Part shown: positions 1 through 8,673 of the stretch, one piece after another
Layout: every line of letters begins with the position of its first letter
Position numbering within the stretch: the stretch's first letter is position 1
Source of the DNA: a virus
Lineage: Duplodnaviria > Heunggongvirae > Uroviricota > Caudoviricetes
Virus record (IMG/VR): IMGVR_UViG_2529292905_000029
Direction: 5' to 3' (one strand)
DNA: 22,134 nucleotides
Program-made: the position numbers and the translations under genes
Notes under the pieces: generated by a model
What the model was told of the DNA's origin: nothing
The model's input: only the letters and a program-made list of their open reading frames with translations
Databases searched by the model: none

Positions 1-1011
1 TTATAACGTCACTCCGCCTTTTAGTGGATTCAGAGCGACGGCATTTTGCAGATAGTCAGGCGCAAGGTGCGCATAGGCCATCGTCTGCTGAATGCTCGCA
101 TGTCCCAGAATCTGTTGCAGTGCGATTATATTGCCCCCATTCATCATGAAATGGCTTGCGAATGTATGCCGCAGGATGTGGGTTGCCTGATTGGGTGGTA
201 TATCAGGTTTCACTCTGCGTAAAATCCCGCAAAATTTCTCATAATCAACTTTGAATAATTTGGCGCTGGCCTCCTCTTTAACTTTTTTCTCCAGTTCCTC
301 AGAAATCGGCACGGCTCGCTTTTTACCGTTTTTGGTTTTCAGGAAGGTAACCCTGCAATTTGTAATCTGTGCTGGTTTTAGCGTGGCAACTTCCGTCCAT
401 CTTCCTCCGGTGCTCAGACATAAAAGCGCGACAAGTAAGTCATCACCAGCCAAAACATTTAACAGTTTTTCGATTTCTGCTTTTTCCAGGAACGTCATTT
501 CAGGGTTGGCCTCCGCCAGTGGCGGCAGTCCGTGAATTGGGTGTTGCCCGGAAAATTCATCCAATTGAATTAATTTTGTGAACATGCCGGATAATCGGTA
601 CATGTCACGGTTTATCGTTGCGGCACTGATACCATCACGTAGTCGCATGGAACGATAATCCATCAAAGCCCTTTTGCTCATCCTGCTCACTGGTATATCA
701 CCTATGCCGCTGATGGTTTTGAGTAGATGATTAAACTCTTTTGTTCCATGCTCGTGGTTTTGCCCGTGATATTTCCACCAGATGTCCAGCAACTCACTCA
801 AAGTCCGGCGGTCTGCTCGCTGGCCTCCCCATTCTTTCTGACTGGCATTGGCGATTGTGTATCGCTCAAATGCTAGTGCTTCAGCTTTTCTTTCGAATTT
901 CCTGCGGATGCGTTTTCCGTCGCGACCGCGAGGTCTAATGTCCACTTCATAGCGACCATCATCGAGCTTCTTAATTGCCATAAGAAAGCCCTCCGGCGCT
1001 GTATTCACCAT
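1..1011 (-). CDS. int: Phage integrase, tyrosine recombinase (P2 Int-like), 336 aa
   Basis: Complete minus-strand ORF whose stop codon is window bases 1-3. C-terminal region has tyrosine-recombinase-like HxLRHT (HILRHTFASH) and a conserved Tyr region (MAYAHLAP). Sits beside the repressor gene at the prophage end, as in P2. Confidence 0.9.
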   Translation of the reverse strand: MVNTAPEGFLMAIKKLDDGRYEVDIRPRGRDGKRIRRKFERKAEALAFERYTIANASQKEWGGQRADRRTLSELLDIWWKYHGQNHEHGTKEFNHLLKTISGIGDIPVSRMSKRALMDYRSMRLRDGISAATINRDMYRLSGMFTKLIQLDEFSGQHPIHGLPPLAEANPEMTFLEKAEIEKLLNVLAGDDLLVALLCLSTGGRWTEVATLKPAQITNCRVTFLKTKNGKKRAVPISEELEKKVKEEASAKLFKVDYEKFCGILRRVKPDIPPNQATHILRHTFASHFMMNGGNIIALQQILGHASIQQTMAYAHLAPDYLQNAVALNPLKGGVTL

Positions 1012-2486: not shown

Positions 2487-2711
2487 ATGCATACAGTTTC
2501 TGAAAATCAGTGCGGTAAATACGCATTACTGCTGCAACAGGCCAGAACCGAAGCACAGGCCGACGCTGCGACGCGCTTTTCTTCTCATCTTGACGCCATG
2601 ATTCGCCACATCACAAAGGCGGAGTTATCCCGCGTGGAGATAGTTGAGCTGCTCAGTCAGGAGTCGGAAAAATTTCACAATATCGGATTGTCTCGCGGGG
2701 AGGTGCTTTGA
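2487..2711 (+). CDS. Hypothetical early protein, 74 aa
   Basis: ORF in the B-to-A interval, co-directional, followed by overlapping stop/start with the next gene. Corresponds to the orf80-83 block of P2 by position. Confidence 0.5.
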
Positions 2712-3013
2712 TGTCCTGTTCTCGTTCGGTTGTATTACTGAATAACGCCTTAAAAATCGCCGTTATGAAAAATGGTGATTTGTCTCTTATTCAACTTGGT
2801 ATTGATAAAGAGAAGCGCGAAATAACTGAATCTGTTATCGCGATTTATCAGAGTGAATTAAACCTCCTGTCTGATGTGGTCAATTTACTTGTTAAACGCG
2901 CTGTATTCCACAAGCAAATTTCCTCAGTGGATGAACTGACAAAATTAACGACAGAACTCGCCAGTTATTGCGCTGATGAATTTAAGAAGCTGAACGACAA
3001 AAGGAGCTGGTAA
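2708..3013 (+). CDS. Hypothetical early protein, 101 aa
   Basis: Start overlaps the upstream stop (ATGA at 2708-2711). Its stop overlaps the next start (TAATG at 3010-3015). Confidence 0.5.
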
Positions 3014-3237
3014 TGCCGGACAACGTGGATTTTATTCAGGAACAACAGGCTGAATTACTGGAGCGCCAGATTAACGCGGCAAGGGTAAAACATTGCGGTG
3101 TTTCTGCGCTGGTTTGCGAAGAGTGTGACGCGCCAATACCTGCTGCCCGTCGTGCGGCTTATCCGTCAGCCACGCGTTGTGTTTCCTGTCAGTCAGTCTT
3201 TGAAGCAAAAAACAAACATTACCGGAGAACGGCATGA
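3013..3237 (+). CDS. TraR/DksA-family C4 zinc-finger protein, 74 aa
   Basis: Two CxxC pairs (CEECDAPIP...CVSCQ) with the spacing typical of DksA/TraR-type zinc fingers. Translationally coupled to its neighbours. Confidence 0.7.
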   Translation: MPDNVDFIQEQQAELLERQINAARVKHCGVSALVCEECDAPIPAARRAAYPSATRCVSCQSVFEAKNKHYRRTA

Positions 3238-3509
3238 GTATTCGTATTGAAATTGGCGAACGTTATGTCGTTACCAGTGACAGCTTTCAGTTTATTCTCC
3301 ACGAGAAAAAGAGAGCGGAAAGCGGTAAAAACGCCGGTCAGGAATGGCTGGCGGTGGTTGGTTATTACCCGAAATTAGGCCAGCTCGTTTCCGGCCTGAT
3401 GCATCACGATATTCTGACCGGAAGCGCAAAATCTTTTGCTGATTTAAACGCGCAGGTTGAGCAACTCAGCAAGCGTTGTTCAGAGGCTTTTGGCTCATAT
3501 GGCCGTTAA
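3234..3509 (+). CDS. Hypothetical early protein, 91 aa
   Basis: ORF with overlapping start (ATGA at 3234-3237). Its stop (3507-3509) overlaps the ATG of gene A at 3499. Confidence 0.5.
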   Translation: MSIRIEIGERYVVTSDSFQFILHEKKRAESGKNAGQEWLAVVGYYPKLGQLVSGLMHHDILTGSAKSFADLNAQVEQLSKRCSEAFGSYGR

Positions 3510-5784
3510 AGCCTCCGGGCGTTTTGTCCCTCCGTCAGCATTTACCGCAGGCACCGGTAAGGCGTTTACCGGTGCTTATGCATGGAACGCGCCACGCGAG
3601 GCTGTCGGGCGCGAAAGACCTCTTACACGTGACGAGATGCGTCAGGTGCAAGGTGTTTTATCCACGATTAACCGCCTGCCTTACTTTTTGCGCTCGCTGT
3701 TTACTTCACGCTATGACTACATCCGGCGCAATAAAAGCCCGGTGCACGGGTTTTATTTCCTCACATCTACTTTTCAGCGTCGTTTATGGCCGCGCATTGA
3801 GCGTGTGAATCAGCGCCATGAAATGAACACCGACGCGTCGTTGCTGTTTCTGGCAGAGCGTGACCACTATGCGCGCCTGCCGGGAATGAATGACAAGGAG
3901 CTGAAAAAGTTTGCCGCCCGTATCTCATCGCAGCTTTTCATGATGTATGAGGAACTCTGCGATGCATGGGTTGATGCGCATGGTGAAAAAGAATCGCTGT
4001 TTACGGATGAGGCGCAGGCTCACCTCTATGGTCATGTTGCTGGCGCTGCACGTGCTTTCAATATTTCCCCGCTCTACTGGAAAAAATACCGTAAAGGACA
4101 GATGACCACGAGGCAGGCATATTCTGCCATTGCCCGCCTGTTTAACGATGAGTGGTGGACTCATCAGCTTAAAGGCCAGCGTATGCGCTGGCATGAGGCG
4201 TTACTGATAGCTGTCGGGGAGGTCAATAAAGACCGTTCTCCTTATGCCAGTAAACACGCCATTCGTGATGTGCGTGCGCGCCGCCAGGCAAATCTGGAAT
4301 TTCTTAAATCGTGTGACCTTGAAAACAGGGAAACCGGCGAGCGCATCGACCTTATCAGTAAGGTGATGGGCAGTATTTCTAATCCTGAAATTCGCCGGAT
4401 GGAGCTGATGAACACCATTGCCGGTATTGAGCGTTACGCCGCCGCAGAGGGTGATGTGGGGATGTTTATCACGCTGACCGCGCCGTCAAAGTATCACCCG
4501 ACACGTCAGGTCGGAAAAGGCGAAAGTAAAACCGTTCAGCTTAATCACGGCTGGAACGATGAGGCATTTAATCCAAAGGATGCGCAGCGTTATCTCTGCC
4601 GTATCTGGAGCCTGATGCGCACGGCATTCAAGGATAATGATTTACAGGTCTACGGTTTGCGAGTCGTCGAGCCACACCACGACGGAACGCCGCACTGGCA
4701 TATGATGCTTTTTTGTCATCCACGCCAGCGTAACCAGATTATCGAAATCATGCGTCGCTATGCGCTCAAAGAGGATGGCGACGAAAGAGGAGCCGCGCGA
4801 AACCGTTTTCAGGCAAAACACCTTAACCGGGGCGGTGCTGCGGGATATATCGCGAAATACATTTCAAAAAACATCGACGGCTATGCACTGGATGGTCAGC
4901 TCGATAACGACACCGGCAGGCCGCTGAAAGACACTGCAGCGGCTGTTACCGCATGGGCGTCAACGTGGCGCATTCCGCAATTTAAAACGGTTGGCCTGCC
5001 GACAATGGGGGCTTACCGTGAACTACGCAAATTGCCTCGCGGCGTCAGCATTGCTGATGAGTTTGACGAGCGCGTCGAGGCTGCACGCGCCGCCGCAGAC
5101 AGTGGTGATTTTGCGCTGTATATCAGCGCGCAGGGCGGGGCAAATGTCCCGCGCGATTGTCAGACTGTCAGGGTCGCCCGTAGTCTGTCGGATGACGTTA
5201 ACGAGTACGAGGAAGAAGTCGAGAGAGTGGTCGGCATTTACGCGCCGCATCTCGGCGCGCGTCATATTCATATCACCAGAACGACGGACTGGCGCATTGT
5301 GCCGAAAGTTCCGGTCGTTGAGCCTTTGACTTTAAAAAGCGGCATCGCCGCGCCTCGGAGTCCTGTCAATAACTGTGGAAAGCTCACCGGTGGTGATACT
5401 TCGTTACCGGCTCCCACACCTTCTGAACACGCCGCAGCAGTGCTTAATCTGGTTGATGACGGTGTTATCGAATGGAATGAGCCGGAGGTCTTGAGGGCGC
5501 TCAGGGGTGCATTAAAACACGACCTGAGAACGCCAAACCGTCAGCAAAGAAACGGAAGCCCGTTAAAACCACATGAAATTGCACCATCGGCCAGACTGAC
5601 CCGGTCTGAACGATTGCAAATCACCCGTATCCGCGTTGACCTTGCTCAGAACGGTATCAGGCCGCAGCGATGGGCACTTGAGGCGCTGGCGCGTGGCGCG
5701 ACCGTAAATTATGACGGGAAAAAATTCACGTATCCGGTCGCTGATGAGTGGCCGGGATTCTCAACAGTAATGGAGTGGACATGA
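3499..5784 (+). CDS. A: Rolling-circle replication initiator endonuclease (P2 gpA), 761 aa
   Basis: Start MAVKASGRFVPP at ATG 3499. HUH-type metal-binding motif (PHWHMMLF) and active-site tyrosine motif (GYIAKYISKN) of rolling-circle initiators. Length equals P2 A (761 aa). Confidence 0.92.
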   Translation: MAVKASGRFVPPSAFTAGTGKAFTGAYAWNAPREAVGRERPLTRDEMRQVQGVLSTINRLPYFLRSLFTSRYDYIRRNKSPVHGFYFLTSTFQRRLWPRIERVNQRHEMNTDASLLFLAERDHYARLPGMNDKELKKFAARISSQLFMMYEELCDAWVDAHGEKESLFTDEAQAHLYGHVAGAARAFNISPLYWKKYRKGQMTTRQAYSAIARLFNDEWWTHQLKGQRMRWHEALLIAVGEVNKDRSPYASKHAIRDVRARRQANLEFLKSCDLENRETGERIDLISKVMGSISNPEIRRMELMNTIAGIERYAAAEGDVGMFITLTAPSKYHPTRQVGKGESKTVQLNHGWNDEAFNPKDAQRYLCRIWSLMRTAFKDNDLQVYGLRVVEPHHDGTPHWHMMLFCHPRQRNQIIEIMRRYALKEDGDERGAARNRFQAKHLNRGGAAGYIAKYISKNIDGYALDGQLDNDTGRPLKDTAAAVTAWASTWRIPQFKTVGLPTMGAYRELRKLPRGVSIADEFDERVEAARAAADSGDFALYISAQGGANVPRDCQTVRVARSLSDDVNEYEEEVERVVGIYAPHLGARHIHITRTTDWRIVPKVPVVEPLTLKSGIAAPRSPVNNCGKLTGGDTSLPAPTPSEHAAAVLNLVDDGVIEWNEPEVLRALRGALKHDLRTPNRQQRNGSPLKPHEIAPSARLTRSERLQITRIRVDLAQNGIRPQRWALEALARGATVNYDGKKFTYPVADEWPGFSTVMEWT

Positions 5785-6236
5785 TGGCAAAAATTCACGA
5801 GGTAAAGCTGCACGCAAAATATTTCGACCTTGTGCTGGAAGGAAAGAAACGCGCAGAGTTTCGGAAAAATGACCGTAATTATGAGCGCGGGGACACGTTG
5901 ATTTTGCATGAATGGGCGCAGGGTGTGTATACGGGGAGAAAGGTTGAAGCCAGGATAACAGATGTTACTGACCTGTCAGACTGGCTGGAAGACTATGTCT
6001 TGCTAAGTATTGAGCTGCTTAATACAGGCGCATATGAGATTGTGAACTGGAAAGAACTTAGTGAGCGTGGCCTGGTATTCAGAATTAATCATGAAATTAT
6101 GCATCAGCTCGGCCTTGCTGTTATGTATGAACCAGAGACGGGGATGTCTGGCGGGGCAATGGTCGCCACGGATGGAGCATGGAACTATTCAGATGAACAG
6201 ATGGAGCGTGCACAGCAAAACGGGTGGCTTGGATAA
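5784..6236 (+). CDS. ASCH/DUF3850-like (PUA-fold) protein with C-terminal extension, 150 aa
   Basis: ATG at 5784 overlaps the TGA of A (ATGATG at 5781-5786). N-terminal ~90 aa (MAKIHEVKLHAKYFDLVLEGKKRAEFRKNDRNYERGDTLILHEW...) resembles the ASCH-like DUF3850 fold. P2 has a 91-aa ORF at this position, so the ~60-aa C-terminal extension is unusual. Confidence 0.6.
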   Translation: MAKIHEVKLHAKYFDLVLEGKKRAEFRKNDRNYERGDTLILHEWAQGVYTGRKVEARITDVTDLSDWLEDYVLLSIELLNTGAYEIVNWKELSERGLVFRINHEIMHQLGLAVMYEPETGMSGGAMVATDGAWNYSDEQMERAQQNGWLG

Positions 6237-6514: not shown

Positions 6515-6754
6515 CTATTTATTAAAAAATTCTAGAAGTGTAATTCCATTGGCTCCAAGGCTTACAAAGCCTTCAATACTATTAATTGATGTGATTGTCT
6601 TTTTCAGAATGTTCTTTAGCTTTGAGCCTTCTTCGGTCGTAGTTATTACTTCGTTAAATTGCTCAGACATACAAGCATGCCCCATTGTGGCTTCTGTTGC
6701 TGAAATTATTGGCTCAATACCAGTTATTTCATAGTCGTCAAAAGCTCTAATCAT
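6515..6754 (-). CDS. Hypothetical small acidic protein, 79 aa (second gene of accessory cassette)
   Basis: Minus-strand ORF in AT-rich DNA. Its ATG (6754-6752) overlaps the TGA (6753-6751) of the upstream 165-aa ORF. Rich in D/E. No recognisable domain. Confidence 0.5.
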   Translation of the reverse strand: MIRAFDDYEITGIEPIISATEATMGHACMSEQFNEVITTTEEGSKLKNILKKTITSINSIEGFVSLGANGITLLEFFNK

Positions 6755-7248
6755 GTTGTCAATGTAATATAATATTTCTTTTTTAGGTTAATTGGGAAGT
6801 CAGAATTAATTATGGATTCCTTCAGTTCTAATAATTGCCCCTTTATTTCAATTAACTGTTCATCTTTAAGTTTTCCAATCTGACCTTTGGTCTTGAATAG
6901 GACTGATATCATCCCTAATTCATTTATGGCATTATCAGAGATTCTTTGGAGGGAATGGGACAGAGATTCTCCCAGATTTAAGTTTTCGAAAAAATCATTA
7001 ACACTGGGCCTCCAGTGTGGGGCTGTGATTTCATCTTCTGGAAAGTAGTCTTTTAATGTGTTATCTATTTTTTTAGGCAAGCTCATGATTTTGGAAATCT
7101 TATCCCATAAGATGGTTTTATTATCTTCAGAACCCTCTAATTCAAACATTTGTAATAAAGCACGCTTTACCGTAATGTTATATGGTTGTTGTGCTTTTAG
7201 CTTGGTGAAAAACTCTCGTAAGGTCAGTGCTGAATTGTCGATGTACAT
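6751..7248 (-). CDS. Hypothetical protein, 165 aa (first gene of accessory cassette)
   Basis: Minus-strand ORF in the AT-rich block, with AGG about 9 nt upstream of the ATG at 7248 and a promoter-like sequence upstream. C-terminal region looks coiled-coil-like (KLKDEQLIEIKGQLLELKESI). No catalytic motif recognised. Confidence 0.55.
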   Translation of the reverse strand: MYIDNSALTLREFFTKLKAQQPYNITVKRALLQMFELEGSEDNKTILWDKISKIMSLPKKIDNTLKDYFPEDEITAPHWRPSVNDFFENLNLGESLSHSLQRISDNAINELGMISVLFKTKGQIGKLKDEQLIEIKGQLLELKESIINSDFPINLKKKYYITLTT

Positions 7249-7290
7249 GGAAAAACCTAACAGTCAAATTATTAATAATAGAACAACAAG

Positions 7291-7319
7291 ATACTAATAA
7301 AATCTAACGTTAGTATCAA
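7291..7319 (-). promoter_or_regulatory. Candidate sigma70 promoter for the accessory cassette (TTGATA-N17-TAGTAT on minus strand)
   Basis: Reverse complement of 7314-7319 is TTGATA and of 7291-7296 is TAGTAT, separated by 17 bp. The spacer contains the perfect palindrome CTAACGTTAG (7304-7313). About 40 nt upstream of the ATG at 7248. Confidence 0.45.
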
Positions 7320-7450
7320 TAACGAATATATGCGCACACTGCATGAAAATGCATTTTCTTTTAAGGGGGCGATATATCGAGTCGAGTCATGGTTGATGCG
7401 ACATTAGTGTGCTGGTGCAACTGCATTCAAACAGACCCATGAAGCGGGCG

Positions 7451-7469
7451 GGCGAGGCGGGGAAAGCAC
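7451..7469. other. cos site: 19-nt cohesive-end sequence GGCGAGGCGGGGAAAGCAC
   Basis: Exact 19-mer that I recall as the P2 cohesive end, found at the expected map position between the accessory slot and the 3' end of Q. A G/T-rich tract follows at about 7540-7610. Confidence 0.7.
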
Positions 7470-7610
7470 TGCGCGCTGGCGGTGGTGCTGATTTTATTTT
7501 TTCAGCGTCTCAGCGCGTCGTGACGGCGCTTAGTCTGCCCGTTGAGGCGTTGGTGTGTCTGCGGGGTGTTTTGTGCGGTGGTGAGCGTGTGAGGGGGTGA
7601 TGACGGGGTG

Positions 7611-7633
7611 TAAAAAAGCCGCCCGCAGGCGGC
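7611..7633 (-). terminator. Rho-independent terminator downstream of Q
   Basis: On the minus strand: GCCGCC-TGCG-GGCGGC stem-loop followed by TTTTTTA, starting about 5 nt after the Q stop codon. Confidence 0.6.
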
Positions 7634-7638
7634 GATGT

Positions 7639-8673
7639 TCAGTCGTTGTCAGTGTCCAGTGAGTAGTTTTTAAAGCGGATGACCTCCTGACCGAGCCAGC
7701 CGTTTATCTCGCGGATCCTGTCCTGTAACGGGATAAGCTCATTGCGGACAAAGACCTTTGCCACTTTCTCAATATCTCCCAGTGACCCGACGTTCTCCGG
7801 CTTGCCGCCCATCAACTGAAAGGGGATGCGGTGTGCGTCCAGCAGGTCAGCGGCGCTGGCTTTTTTGATATTAAAAAAATCGTCCTTCGTTGCCACTTCA
7901 CTGAGCGGGATAATTTTAATGCCGTCAGCTTTCCCCTGCGGGGCATAGAGAAACAGGTTTTTAAAGTTGTTGCGACCTTTCGACTTAACCATGTTTTCGC
8001 GGAGCATTTCGATATCGTTGCGATCCTGCACGGCATCGGTGACGTACATGATGTATCCGGCATGTGCGCCATTTTCGTAATACTTGCGGCGGAACAACGT
8101 GGCCGACTCATTCAGCCAGGCAGAGTTAAGGGCGCTGAGATATTCCGGCAGGCCGTACAGCTCCTGATTAATATCCGGCTCCAGCAGGTGAAACACGGAG
8201 CCGGGCGCGAAAGGTGTCGGCTCGTTGAAGGACGGCACCCACCAGTAAACATCCTCCTCCACGCCACGGCGGGTATATTTTGCCGGTGAGGTTTCCAGTC
8301 TGATGATCTTACCGGTGGTGCTGTAACGCTTTTCCAGAAACGCATTACCGAACACCAGAAAATCCAGCACAAAGCGGCTGAAATCCTGTTGTGAAAGCCA
8401 CGGATGCGGGATAAATGTCGAGGCCAGAATATTACGTTTGACGTAAATCGGTGAGCTGTGATGCACGGCAGCACGCAGACTTTTTGCCAGACCGGTAAAG
8501 CTGACCGGCGGCTCATACCATCTGCCGTTACTGATGCATTCGACGTAATCCAGAATGTCACGGCGGTCGAGTACCGGCACCGGCTCGCCAAAGGTGAATG
8601 CCTCCATTTTCGGGGCGCTGGCGGTCATTGTTTTTGCCGCAGGTTGCGGTGTTTTCCCTTTTTTCTTGCTCAT
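7639..8673 (-). CDS. Q: Portal protein (P2 gpQ), 344 aa
   Basis: Minus-strand ORF of 344 aa, the same length as P2 Q. Adjacent to and overlapping the terminase large-subunit gene; immediately inside cos, as in P2. Confidence 0.9.
   Translation of the reverse strand: MSKKKGKTPQPAAKTMTASAPKMEAFTFGEPVPVLDRRDILDYVECISNGRWYEPPVSFTGLAKSLRAAVHHSSPIYVKRNILASTFIPHPWLSQQDFSRFVLDFLVFGNAFLEKRYSTTGKIIRLETSPAKYTRRGVEEDVYWWVPSFNEPTPFAPGSVFHLLEPDINQELYGLPEYLSALNSAWLNESATLFRRKYYENGAHAGYIMYVTDAVQDRNDIEMLRENMVKSKGRNNFKNLFLYAPQGKADGIKIIPLSEVATKDDFFNIKKASAADLLDAHRIPFQLMGGKPENVGSLGDIEKVAKVFVRNELIPLQDRIREINGWLGQEVIRFKNYSLDTDND

What the first reader, a model, noticed from the sequence alone, without database searches (positions are those of the whole stretch)
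7451..7610. cos cohesive-end sequence followed by a G/T-rich repetitive tract
GGCGAGGCGGGGAAAGCAC (7451-7469) matches the 19-nt P2 cohesive end as I recall it and lies at the expected map position. Between it and the Q terminator, about 7540-7610 is a G/T-rich low-complexity tract (GTGTGTCTGCGGGGTGTTTTGTGCGGTGGTGAGCGTGTGAGGGGGTGATGACGGGGTG) that encodes nothing plausible. It could be part of the terminase recognition and packaging signal, or a structured DNA element.
Basis: partly seen in the sequence, partly recalled or inferred. Interest (0 to 1): 0.45.

Follow-up and report, generated by a model that had tools for sequence, protein, structure and literature searches.

The report
P2 phage cos site and spacer
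This is the well-known DNA-cutting (cos) site of a P2-type prophage, followed by the usual non-coding G/T-rich spacer before the portal gene; the spacer is real and oddly conserved in composition, but related elements do without it, so it is not the core packaging signal.

Summary
Both observations hold. The sequence at 7451-7469 is an exact, unique copy of the 19-nt P2 cohesive end. P2 base 1 aligns to window 7451, and 7451-7660 is about 97.6% identical to P2 1-208. The stretch 7540-7610 is the most G+T-rich (83-85%) and most GC-skewed part of the 22-kb window. It is non-coding.

The packaging-signal reading is only partly supported. Across 184 unique relatives, universal conservation runs from -36 to +26 around cos (the published 55-bp core), plus right-arm blocks. 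P4, phiCTX, pro147 and 71 of 184 relatives replace everything beyond +26.

Where the tract is present it belongs to a conserved left-arm module:
- an A/T block;
- a conserved block with GCGTCTGAG at +55;
- a sequence-saturated spacer that stays G/T-rich;
- a second GCGTCTGAG-like copy at about +134 (spacing 79-80 bp);
- the terminator tQ.

My best reading is a dispensable accessory protein-DNA architecture flanking cos. The main rival is that the C-rich, G-poor read-through transcript acts as a rut-like backup terminator shielding cos. I found no conserved secondary structure, G-quadruplex, Chi site, IHF site or Rfam family.

The cos site is already known. The module's function is an open, modest question.

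The parts
7339..7356 (+). Distal right-arm block CTGCATGAAAATGCATT, two TGCAT motifs. Family consensus gTGCATgaatTTGCATg at -112..-94 from cos.
   Evidence: Conserved in the ungapped profile of 74 relatives. Also conserved in the 71 P4-like or cargo-type relatives that lack the G/T tract. Present in the right arms of P2, 186 and P4.
7415..7450 (+). Right-arm half of the conserved cos core: GTGCAACTGCATTCAAACAGACCCATGAAGCGGGCG (positions -36..-1).
   Evidence: Near-invariant across 74 and then 184 unique relatives, P4 included. Homology to 2,152 E. coli genomes begins at about 7396-7411. This corresponds to the published 55-bp core (PMC5694545 and PMC3931495, citing Ziermann & Calendar 1990).
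7451..7469 (+). The 19-nt cohesive-end sequence (the cos cleavage region), identical to P2 cosL/cosR.
   Evidence: Exact and unique in the window. Annotated as cosL and cosR in AF063097. Mean pairwise identity 0.92 among 42 relatives.
7470..7476 (+). TGCGCGC, the left-arm end of the conserved core (+20..+26).
   Evidence: Pairwise identity 0.99. It is the last conserved position in P4 and in cargo-bearing relatives.
7477..7503 (+). A variable GGTGGTG-type segment (7477-7490) followed by an A/T block, ATTTTATTTTTT (7491-7502).
   Evidence: Composition of the A/T block across the family is T 0.61, A 0.28. Relatives without the tract still show an A/T peak at +40..+49 (0.73 against about 0.55 background). 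No IHF consensus within 2 mismatches. A weak + strand terminator-like hairpin lies at 7473-7488.
7504..7530 (+). Block 1: AGCGTCTCAGCGCGTCGTGACGGCGCT, with the 9-mer GCGTCTCAG at 7505-7513 (family consensus GCGTCTGAG at +55).
   Evidence: Pairwise identity 0.72, against 0.54 at portal 4-fold degenerate sites. The 9-mer starts at +54..+56 in 34 of 74 sequences and at +54/55 in 48 of 110. Some cargo-bearing relatives that lost the tract still keep block 1.
7531..7583 (+). It reads C/A-rich on the Q-sense (-) strand.
   Evidence: For +81..+120 the pairwise identity is 0.37, which is saturated, yet composition stays at G 0.41, T 0.33, C 0.15, A 0.10 and GC skew is positive in 40 of 42 relatives. 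This is the most skewed region of the window.
7584..7606 (+). Block 2: AGCGTGTGAGGGGGTGATGACGG, a second same-orientation copy of block 1, with the 9-mer GCGTGTGAG at 7585-7593.
   Evidence: the repeat finder family D1: 74% identity to 7504-7526, 80 nt apart. The consensus 9-mer (<=1 mismatch) starts at +131..+135 in 26 of 74 and 35 of 110 relatives and almost nowhere else. The window's own copy has 2 mismatches. Spacing from block 1 is 79-80 bp in 42 of 51 sequences.
7611..7633 (-). Intrinsic terminator tQ of the P-Q late operon: stem GCCGCC-TGCG-GGCGGC followed by TTTTTT.
   Evidence: Found by the terminator scan. It is homologous to the terminator annotated in P2 at 160-181 and to 186 tW. 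Q ends at 7639.

Best explanation
The window is a P2-type prophage. 7451-7469 is its cos cleavage sequence, where the gpM/gpP terminase makes staggered nicks that leave 19-nt 5' cohesive ends.

The recognition signal shared by every element that uses this packaging system runs from about 7415 to 7476. It probably also includes the TGCAT blocks further left, at 7339-7356. So the shared signal lies mostly on the side of cos opposite the G/T tract.

The G/T tract (about 7531-7610) is the middle of a conserved but dispensable left-arm module. P2/186-type phages have this module when no cargo sits between cos and the portal gene. Its order is:
- an A/T block;
- block 1 (GCGTCTGAG at +55);
- a freely diverging but always G/T-rich spacer;
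- block 2 (the same motif, same orientation, about 79-80 bp further on);
- the terminator tQ.

Inferred mechanism. The two equally oriented repeats, held at fixed distances from the nick site, are binding sites for a protein, most plausibly the small terminase subunit or a partner. This protein organises the portal-proximal arm of cos into a higher-order complex. That would tune the efficiency or timing of cleavage or end handling without being required for recognition.

Shown here: the identity of cos, the extent of conservation, the fixed positions of the repeats, the constraint on composition, and dispensability in relatives.

Inferred only: that the repeats bind protein, and that they act in packaging.
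For: Identity of cos: an exact, unique 19-mer, identical to the annotated P2 cosL/cosR, with 97.6% identity to P2 1-208 starting exactly at 7451. The small terminase and portal lie in P2 order.

Extent of the core: universal conservation from -36 to +26, plus the block at -112..-94, in 74 and then 184 unique relatives.

Module architecture:
- Block 1 pairwise identity is 0.72, against 0.54 at portal 4-fold sites.
- GCGTCTGAG with at most 1 mismatch occurs almost only at +54..+56 and +131..+135, always on the + strand, in two independent samples (34 and 26 of 74 sequences; 48 and 35 of 110).
- Motif 1 starts at +55 in 45 of 51 sequences, and the inter-motif spacing is 79-80 bp in 42 of 51.
- The two clean length changes are both about 10 bp, in L011 and L165.
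- In L056 both motifs shift by 6 bp relative to cos while keeping a 78-bp spacing.

The module travels with cos. When cargo is inserted between Q and the terminator, the terminator, tract and blocks stay next to cos (L038, L042, L047, L069, L071).
Against: Nothing here shows protein binding.

P4, which P2 terminase packages (PMC9122126), has no homology beyond +26. The same holds for phiCTX, pro147 and 71 of 184 relatives. Any packaging role must therefore be accessory.

The helical-phasing argument rests on only two clean 10-bp deletions. The '+10' lineage (L018, L032, L180) is a shifted motif, not an insertion. Distances from cos to the terminator also take intermediate values of 158-164.

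No 10-11 bp A/T periodicity was found in the spacer, and no IHF consensus.

Many of the sampled relatives are not independent lineages, so fixed spacing may partly reflect shared descent.

A DNA-binding model does not by itself explain why the spacer is strand-asymmetric (G/T on one strand in 40 of 42 relatives). Within this single window the motif is no more frequent than chance: 8 matches against 8.4 expected.
Confidence: 0.45

Rival explanations
1. Backup Rho-dependent terminator, acting as an insulator. Late transcripts that read through tQ carry the tract as a C/A-rich, G/U-poor, unstructured RNA. This is a rut-like Rho loading site. Rho would then release RNA polymerase before it crosses cos and enters the cargo genes beyond it, keeping the terminase substrate free of transcription. 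Under this reading the conserved blocks would be separate, DNA-level features.
For: On the Q-sense strand, 7533-7610 has 40 C, 10 G, 23 A and 5 U out of 78, with 19 YC dimers. It is the most GC-skewed stretch of the window.

The tract starts immediately after the intrinsic terminator and stays unpaired in the centroid fold.

Composition is conserved while sequence is saturated: identity 0.37, with skew positive in 40 of 42 relatives. All 45 short-interval loci are C-rich on this strand, with mean C 0.45 and G 0.17. That pattern suggests selection on composition of one strand. From my own knowledge, it is typical of rut sites.
Against: There is no experimental link to Rho, and read-through past a 6-bp GC stem with a U6 tail may be small.

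Rho loading does not predict the fixed +55/+134 positions or the 79-80 bp spacing.

When cargo replaces the tract, the terminator stays with Q but no C-rich tract is kept downstream of it (L035, L043, L053).

No other terminator region in the 22-kb window has such a tract.
Confidence: 0.28
2. Essentially neutral spacer. The interval between cos and tQ has no function of its own. Its blocks are conserved only through shared descent and hitch-hiking with cos, and the G/T bias is a local mutational bias.
For: The interval is replaceable. Cargo, including retrons, occupies it in many relatives (Dodd & Egan 1996 as cited in PMC5694545).

The central 40 nt evolve at or above the synonymous rate: identity 0.37 against 0.54.

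The interval carries no annotation in the P2, 186 or PSP3 records.
Against: Block 1 is more conserved than synonymous sites, 0.72 against 0.54.

A sequence-saturated region would not keep a GC skew of about 0.46 in 40 of 42 lineages without some constraint.

Indels are almost absent despite that saturation.
Confidence: 0.17
3. Essential cosB-like terminase recognition site. On this view the G/T tract and its repeats are required for terminase to recognise and package the DNA, as lambda cosB is.
For: The layout looks superficially like lambda cosB: repeats plus an A/T block within about 160 bp of the nick site and before the first gene. This comparison with lambda rests on my own knowledge.

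One study found that longer flanks around the (P4-derived) cos region raise cosmid transduction by orders of magnitude (PMC9594776).
Against: P4 and 71 of 184 relatives lack the tract entirely yet keep the right arm and core. The published functional core is 55 bp (PMC5694545, PMC3931495, PMC9594776). No IHF site was found.
Confidence: 0.06
4. Structured DNA or recombination element: a G-quadruplex, a cruciform, or a Chi-like hotspot at the genome end.
For: The top strand is G-rich and carries GGTGG-type motifs, with one Chi-like octamer, GCTGGCGG, at 7475. There is an inverted repeat, 7467-7478 with 7511-7522.
Against: A canonical G4 motif is present in 0 of 42 relatives, and the window has no exact Chi on the + strand.

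The G/T-rich strand faces the wrong way for RecBCD entering at the nearby left end. This follows from the known polarity of Chi recognition and is my inference.

There is no consensus structure or covariation and no Rfam family.
Confidence: 0.04

Closest known systems
Bacteriophage P2 cos region (AF063097 / NC_001895, bases 1-186 plus the right end)
   Same: The 19-nt cohesive end is identical. The window is 97.6% identical to P2 1-208 from cosL through tQ into Q. It has the same gene order and the same G/T tract, which lies at about P2 bases 80-160.
   Different: There are a few substitutions and one 1-nt indel in the tract. The DNA to the left of about -40 (the cargo hotspot that holds old/tin in P2) is unrelated.
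The cos-to-tW interval of phages 186 and PSP3 (Eganvirus)
   Same: The architecture is the same: cos, TGCGCGC, an A/T block, CGTCTGAG at +55/56, a G/T-rich spacer, GCGTCTGAG at +134, then the terminator.
   Different: The cohesive end differs at 2 positions (GGCGTGGCGGGGAAAGCAT). The spacer is only about 72% identical to the window, or cannot be aligned.
Satellite phage P4 cos
   Same: P4 shares the right-arm core, the 19-nt end and the following CGCGCGC. It is packaged by the P2 terminase (PMC9122126).
   Different: P4 has no G/T tract, no blocks 1 and 2 and no portal-gene terminator. Its left arm is unrelated A/T-rich DNA leading to gop.
Lambda cos (cosQ-cosN-cosB)
   Same: In both, a nicking site is flanked by accessory elements within about 200 bp. 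Both have repeated elements and an A/T-rich segment between the nick site and the first gene. The lambda side of this comparison rests on my own knowledge.
   Different: There is no sequence similarity and no IHF consensus. In the P2 family the universally conserved flank lies on the other side of the nick site, and the repeat-bearing arm is dispensable in relatives. From my own knowledge, P2 packages circular monomers rather than concatemers.
Rho-utilisation (rut) regions of Rho-dependent terminators, for example lambda tR1
   Same: The candidate transcript segment is about 80 nt, C-rich, G-poor and unstructured.
   Different: It lies after a strong intrinsic terminator. It contains positionally fixed sequence repeats that rut sites do not need. 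No Rho dependence has been shown.

Membership tests
P2-family cos site | A 19-nt cohesive-end sequence matching the verified P2 or 186 ends. | tested here: met
   19 of 19 identical to the cosL/cosR annotated in P2. PMC3931495 quotes the same sequence.
P2-family cos site | The conserved ~55-bp core around the cleavage site that P2-like phages share with P4. | tested here: met
   Window 7415-7476 matches the family consensus from -36 to +26. PMC5694545 and PMC9594776 describe the 55-bp core.
P2-family cos site | Location between the replication/cargo region and the portal-terminase (Q-P) operon, with cognate terminase genes present. | tested here: met
   The ORF order follows P2. The small terminase matches PF05944 with E = 4.7e-48. 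The portal protein retrieves P2-like loci.
P2-family cos site | Cleavage by terminase yields 19-nt 5' overhangs, and the site directs packaging. | not testable with these tools
   This needs end-mapping of virion DNA or a cosmid transduction assay.
Lambda-type cosB (terminase-binding accessory site) | Repeated sequence elements next to the nicking site. | tested here: met
   There are two same-orientation copies of a GCGTCTGAG-type block, at +55 and about +134, positionally conserved across relatives.
Lambda-type cosB (terminase-binding accessory site) | Required for recognition and packaging by the cognate terminase. | tested here: not met
   The elements are absent from P4, phiCTX, pro147 and 71 of 184 relatives, all of which keep the core. 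This is a test by natural variation only, not by experiment.
Lambda-type cosB (terminase-binding accessory site) | An IHF-binding site between the repeats. | tested here: not met
   There is no WATCAANNNNTTR match within 2 mismatches in 7441-7620. Only an A/T block is present.
Lambda-type cosB (terminase-binding accessory site) | The small terminase subunit binds the repeats. | not testable with these tools
   This needs EMSA or footprinting with gpM.
Rho-dependent terminator (rut site) | About 70-80 nt of C-rich, G-poor transcript. | tested here: met
   The - strand of 7533-7610 has C 40/78 and G 10/78, with 19 YC dimers. It has the top GC skew in the window.
Rho-dependent terminator (rut site) | Little secondary structure in the loading region. 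| tested here: inconclusive
   The tract is unpaired in the centroid structure, but the whole 171-nt RNA gives z = -1.08, which is unremarkable.
Rho-dependent terminator (rut site) | Termination depends on Rho (sensitive to bicyclomycin, rho mutants or Psu). | not testable with these tools
   This needs transcript 3'-end mapping.
Intrinsic terminator (tQ) | A GC-rich hairpin followed by a U-run at the end of the operon. | tested here: met
   On the - strand, stem 7633-7618 (6 GC pairs, loop of 4) followed by TTTTTT. Homologous to the annotated P2 tQ.
Known RNA families (Rfam 15) | A covariance-model match. | tested here: not met
   No match at E <= 1 in 7200-7700 on either strand.
G-quadruplex / Chi hotspot | Four G3+ runs with short loops, or the octamer GCTGGTGG in the active orientation. 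| tested here: not met
   The G4 motif is present in 0 of 42 relatives. The region has no exact Chi, only GCTGGCGG at 7475.

The most novel reading that the evidence does not exclude
The left arm of cos in P2/186-type phages may carry an undescribed accessory module. It would consist of two equally oriented GCGTCTGAG-type repeats held about 79-80 bp apart and at fixed distances from the nick site. Between them lies a spacer that diverges freely in sequence but must stay G/T-rich on one strand.

The module could do two jobs at once: assemble a higher-order terminase (or host-factor) complex on the DNA, and load Rho on read-through RNA to keep cos free of transcription.

Satellite P4 and cargo-bearing relatives would then be natural 'minimal cos' variants. 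P4 Psu, an anti-Rho factor, could interfere with the insulating function.
Probability: 0.3. Interest if true: 0.45.

Novelty: already known. Interest (0 to 1): 0.25.

Why it matters
The cos assignment fixes the virion genome ends of this prophage. It also marks the boundary of the cargo (defence-gene) hotspots that flank cos in P2-like phages (PMC9122126).

The comparative result is of practical use for P2/P4-based cosmids and phage-like delivery particles. The universally conserved signal is 7415-7476, plus right-arm blocks, and not the G/T tract. The left-arm blocks are candidates for elements that tune efficiency, and one study reported that flank length around cos changes transduction by 10^3-10^4-fold (PMC9594776).

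The tract is also a clean natural case of constraint on composition without constraint on sequence, lying next to a packaging site. If it proves to be a Rho loading site, it would tie P4 Psu to the helper's cos region. If it proves to be a protein-wrapping spacer, it would give a first picture of cos architecture in the P2 family beyond the 55-bp core.

Tried and rejected
1. **Protein coding.** The + strand ORF 7409-7600 (63 aa), labelled 'hypothetical protein' in several phage records, is broken by stops or frameshifts in P2, 186, L007, L008, L015 and L022. Stop-free frames are a by-product of the base composition.
2. **Known RNA.** No Rfam match at E <= 1.
3. **Conserved hairpin or cruciform around the A/T block** (inverted repeat 7467-7478 with 7511-7522). 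RNAalifold on 38 relatives gives no consensus structure and no covariation.
4. **G-quadruplex.** The canonical motif is present in 0 of 42 relatives.
5. **Chi or RecBCD protection.** There is no exact Chi, and the orientation is wrong for entry at the nearby end (plus inference).
6. **IHF site.** No match within 2 mismatches.
7. **Tandem-repeat array.** Only one 11-nt unit x1.9.
8. **A 10-11 bp A/T periodicity in the spacer, as a signature of DNA wrapping.** Not significant against shuffles. There is only a faint S-S autocorrelation at lags 10-11.
9. **Scan with a 22-nt PWM built from block 1.** The matrix is too strict. A second copy is significant in only 16 of 42 sequences, although the window's copy at +135 exceeds the 99th percentile of the null.
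10. **Clustering of spacers into independent lineages.** This failed because low-complexity composition inflates identity.
11. **Motif enrichment elsewhere in the window, as a clue to the binding protein.** None: 8 matches against 8.4 expected.
12. **Literature.** Ziermann & Calendar 1990, Dodd & Egan 1996 and Christie & Calendar 2016 are not held. I could not establish the direction of P2 packaging from the held papers. One literature search was wasted on the ambiguous terms 'gpM' and 'cos'.

Full report
**Observation.** The window is a P2-type prophage. Integrase is at 1-1011 (- strand), replication gene A at 3457-5784, and cargo ORFs run up to 7248. The portal Q (7639-8673) and large terminase P follow on the - strand. 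Capsid and tail genes follow on the + strand, including a small terminase (PF05944, E = 4.7e-48).

The 19-mer GGCGAGGCGGGGAAAGCAC sits at 7451-7469. It is the only match in the window even with three mismatches allowed (0.02 expected). The P2 reference record annotates exactly this sequence as cosL (1-19) and cosR. It places the terminator tQ at 160-181 and Q at 187-1221. BLAST aligns P2 base 1 to window 7451, with 97.6% identity over 208 nt. PMC3931495 quotes the same sequence as the P2 cohesive end. The cos observation is therefore correct.

The G/T tract is also real. 7540-7610 is 53.5% G, 29.6% T, 9.9% C and 7.0% A. The 71-nt window starting at 7541 has the highest G+T (0.845; window mean 0.513, sd 0.07) and the highest GC skew (0.73) in the 22 kb. 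It is low-complexity by composition rather than a tandem array. TRF finds only an 11-nt unit x1.9. The repeat finder finds one imperfect 23-nt direct repeat, 7504-7526 vs 7584-7606.

**The region is common.** 2,152 of 5,426 complete E. coli genomes hold the cos-tract-Q end at 80-99% identity. In those matches, homology to the window starts only at about 7396-7411, so the cargo to the left is different. 112 phage records match, and most cover the whole left arm.

**Where the packaging signal lies.** I collected two samples of relatives:
- 80 loci encoding a portal 67-99% identical to the window's, one per bacterial species;
- 120 IMG/VR loci carrying the cos core.

Anchoring 74, and then 184, unique sequences on cos gives a clear profile. 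Universal conservation runs from -36 to +26: ATGCAaCTGCATTAAAAcCGaCCCATaAAGCGGGCA, then GGCGtGGCGGGGAaAGCAt, then TGCGCGC. A further right-arm block, gTGCATgaatTTGCATg, lies at -112..-94. This matches the 55-bp core attributed to Ziermann & Calendar 1990 (PMC5694545, PMC3931495, PMC9594776).

Satellite P4 uses the P2 terminase (PMC9122126). It shares the right arm, the cohesive end and CGCGCGC, then diverges completely. phiCTX does the same, with ctx as cargo.

In 26 of the 80 loci, cargo lies between the portal gene and cos. They fall into three groups:
- Some keep the terminator, tract and blocks next to cos (L038, L042, L047, L069, L071).
- Some keep only block 1 (L035, L043, L077, L078).
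- Many replace everything up to +26 (L012, L013, L051, L053, L058, L059, L063, L066, L067, L072, L079).

Overall, 71 of 184 unique left arms show no conservation beyond +26. They still keep the right-arm blocks and an A/T peak at +40..+49. Among deposited phages, pro147 carries an Ec48-type retron in place of the tract. vB_EcoM-613R3 keeps homology only through block 1. This agrees with the title of Dodd & Egan 1996 (as cited in PMC5694545): retrons replace the DNA between cos and a terminator in a 186-related prophage. The tract is therefore not part of the essential recognition signal.

**Anatomy of the left arm when present.** A gapped alignment of 42 relatives gives the mean pairwise identities below.

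| Segment (position from cos base 1) | Mean pairwise identity |
|---|---|
| cos (+1..+19) | 0.92 |
| TGCGCGC (+20..+26) | 0.99 |
| +27..+41 | 0.50 |
| A/T block (+42..+53) | 0.47 |
| block 1 (+54..+80) | 0.72 |
| +81..+120 | 0.37 |
| block 2 (+134..+156) | 0.51 |
| terminator (+157..+182) | 0.66 |

For the same genomes, 4-fold degenerate sites of the portal gene give 0.54. Block 1 is therefore under purifying selection, whereas the middle of the tract is saturated.

That saturated stretch still keeps G 0.41, T 0.33, C 0.15 and A 0.10, with positive GC skew in 40 of 42 sequences. All 45 short-interval loci are C-rich on the Q-sense strand, with mean C 0.45 and G 0.17. Composition is constrained on one strand without any constraint on sequence.

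**Fixed repeats.** The 9-mer GCGTCTGAG with at most 1 mismatch occurs almost exclusively at +54..+56 and +131..+135. It is always on the + strand and never in the right arm. This holds in both samples: 34 and 26 of 74 sequences, and 48 and 35 of 110. In the window the copies are GCGTCTCAG (7505-7513) and GCGTGTGAG (7585-7593).

Among 51 sequences in which all landmarks could be called:
- motif 1 starts at +55 in 45;
- the inter-motif spacing is 79-80 bp in 42, 78 in 3 and 76 in 1;
- it is 69-70 in 2 (L011, and L165, which is a clean 10-bp deletion of the P2 type);
- it is 89 in 3, all one lineage.

In the '89' lineage the total length from cos to the terminator is unchanged, so this is a shifted motif rather than an insertion. 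L056 shifts both motifs by 6 bp relative to cos but keeps a 78-bp spacing.

Helical phasing is therefore suggested but not established. Distances from cos to the terminator also take values of 158-164. I found no significant 10-11 bp A/T periodicity. Within this one window the motif is not over-represented. Its significance comes only from comparison across relatives.

**Other readings tested.**
- The + strand ORF across cos is not conserved.
- There is no Rfam family.
- There is no consensus structure or covariation around the A/T block.
- There is no canonical G4 in any relative and no Chi.
- There is no IHF consensus.
- The read-through RNA (- strand, 7470-7640) folds no better than shuffles (z = -1.08). 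The tQ hairpin is present and the tract is unpaired.

**Interpretation.** Two features need explaining. One is the pair of positionally fixed, equally oriented repeats. The other is the strand-specific composition of the DNA between them.

Fixed distances to the nick site and between the repeats point to a function of the DNA duplex linked to cos. That is why I rank an accessory protein-DNA architecture first. The binding protein would most plausibly be the small terminase or a partner, organising the portal-proximal arm.

Strand asymmetry immediately after an intrinsic terminator points to RNA. The Q-sense transcript of 7533-7610 has 40 C, 23 A, 10 G and 5 U, with 19 YC dimers. From my own knowledge, that is how a Rho loading site looks. 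I therefore rank second a backup terminator that keeps late transcription off cos.

The two readings are not exclusive. A neutral-spacer reading is weakened by block 1 conservation, by the persistent skew and by the near-absence of indels. An essential cosB-like role is contradicted by P4 and by the many relatives that lack the arm.

I could not determine from the held literature which end of P2 DNA is packaged first. The analogy to lambda cosB as opposed to cosQ therefore stays open.

**Comparison and novelty.** The cos site is a textbook P2 cos, and the tract is the same sequence present, unannotated, in the P2 reference. The finding as submitted is already known.

The phased-repeat and skewed-spacer architecture of the left arm may not have been described. 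The phiCTX record does annotate 'R4, R5, R6 repeats' across its own cos. Interest is low to moderate.

Noticed in passing
window 7339-7356 and 7415-7431: There are four TGCA(T) motifs on the right arm of cos: CTGCATGAAAATGCATT, and GTGCAACTGCATT. [quoted passage not shown] They are better candidates for the terminase recognition site than the G/T tract.
   Followed up: partly
window 6515-7248 (- strand): The overlapping ORFs 6751-7248 (165 aa) and 6515-6754 (79 aa) match the N-terminal (1-163) and C-terminal (166-244) parts of a single PHROG family, phrog_15904, of unknown function. This cargo gene next to cos therefore appears split by a frameshift or nonsense change. It has no PADLOC hit.
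   Followed up: partly
window 5748-6236 (+ strand): A 162-aa protein with ASCH/DUF3850 and DUF7415 domains (PHROG 1812) lies just after, and slightly overlaps, the end of replication gene A. It sits in the cargo hotspot between A and cos.
   Followed up: no
window 7250-7400: The DNA between the cargo gene and about -50 of cos has a sigma-70-like promoter on the - strand (7319-7291). It has no match of roughly 85% identity or better (megablast) in 5,426 complete E. coli genomes, although the adjacent cos-Q segment is present in 2,152 of them.
   Followed up: no
window 7473-7502 (+ strand): A weak terminator-like hairpin, GCGCTGGCGGTGGTGC, is followed by TGATTTTATTTTTT immediately after cos. It could stop rightward transcription coming from the cargo side. 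The hairpin is not conserved as a structure across relatives.
   Followed up: partly
L210 (phage pro147, NC_028896) 2500-4800: pro147 carries an Ec48-family retron (reverse transcriptase plus effector membrane protein) between cos and the portal gene. It has a second reverse transcriptase on the other side of cos. Both flanks of cos therefore act as cargo hotspots.
   Followed up: no
L019, downstream of the portal gene: Directly after the portal terminator there is a shortened tract and a degenerate cos-like sequence (GTGCTTGCCCCCTCACC). A complete terminator-tract-cos copy lies 2.5 kb further on. This looks like a remnant of recombination between two P2-like elements.
   Followed up: no
L007, L012, L063 (genome contigs): Assemblies labelled Bacillota MAG, Vagococcus sp. 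and Chryseobacterium sp. carry enterobacterial P2-like portal genes at 99%, 84% and 73% identity, and all three carry P2-type or 186-type cos sites. This probably reflects contamination or mis-binning of those assemblies.
   Followed up: no
L088 (phiCTX, NC_003278) 1-220 and the right end: The phiCTX record annotates a 'region 3 containing R4, R5, R6 repeats' spanning its cos. This shows that repeats around cos have been noted in at least one P2-family phage. They share no sequence with the enterobacterial left-arm blocks.
   Followed up: no
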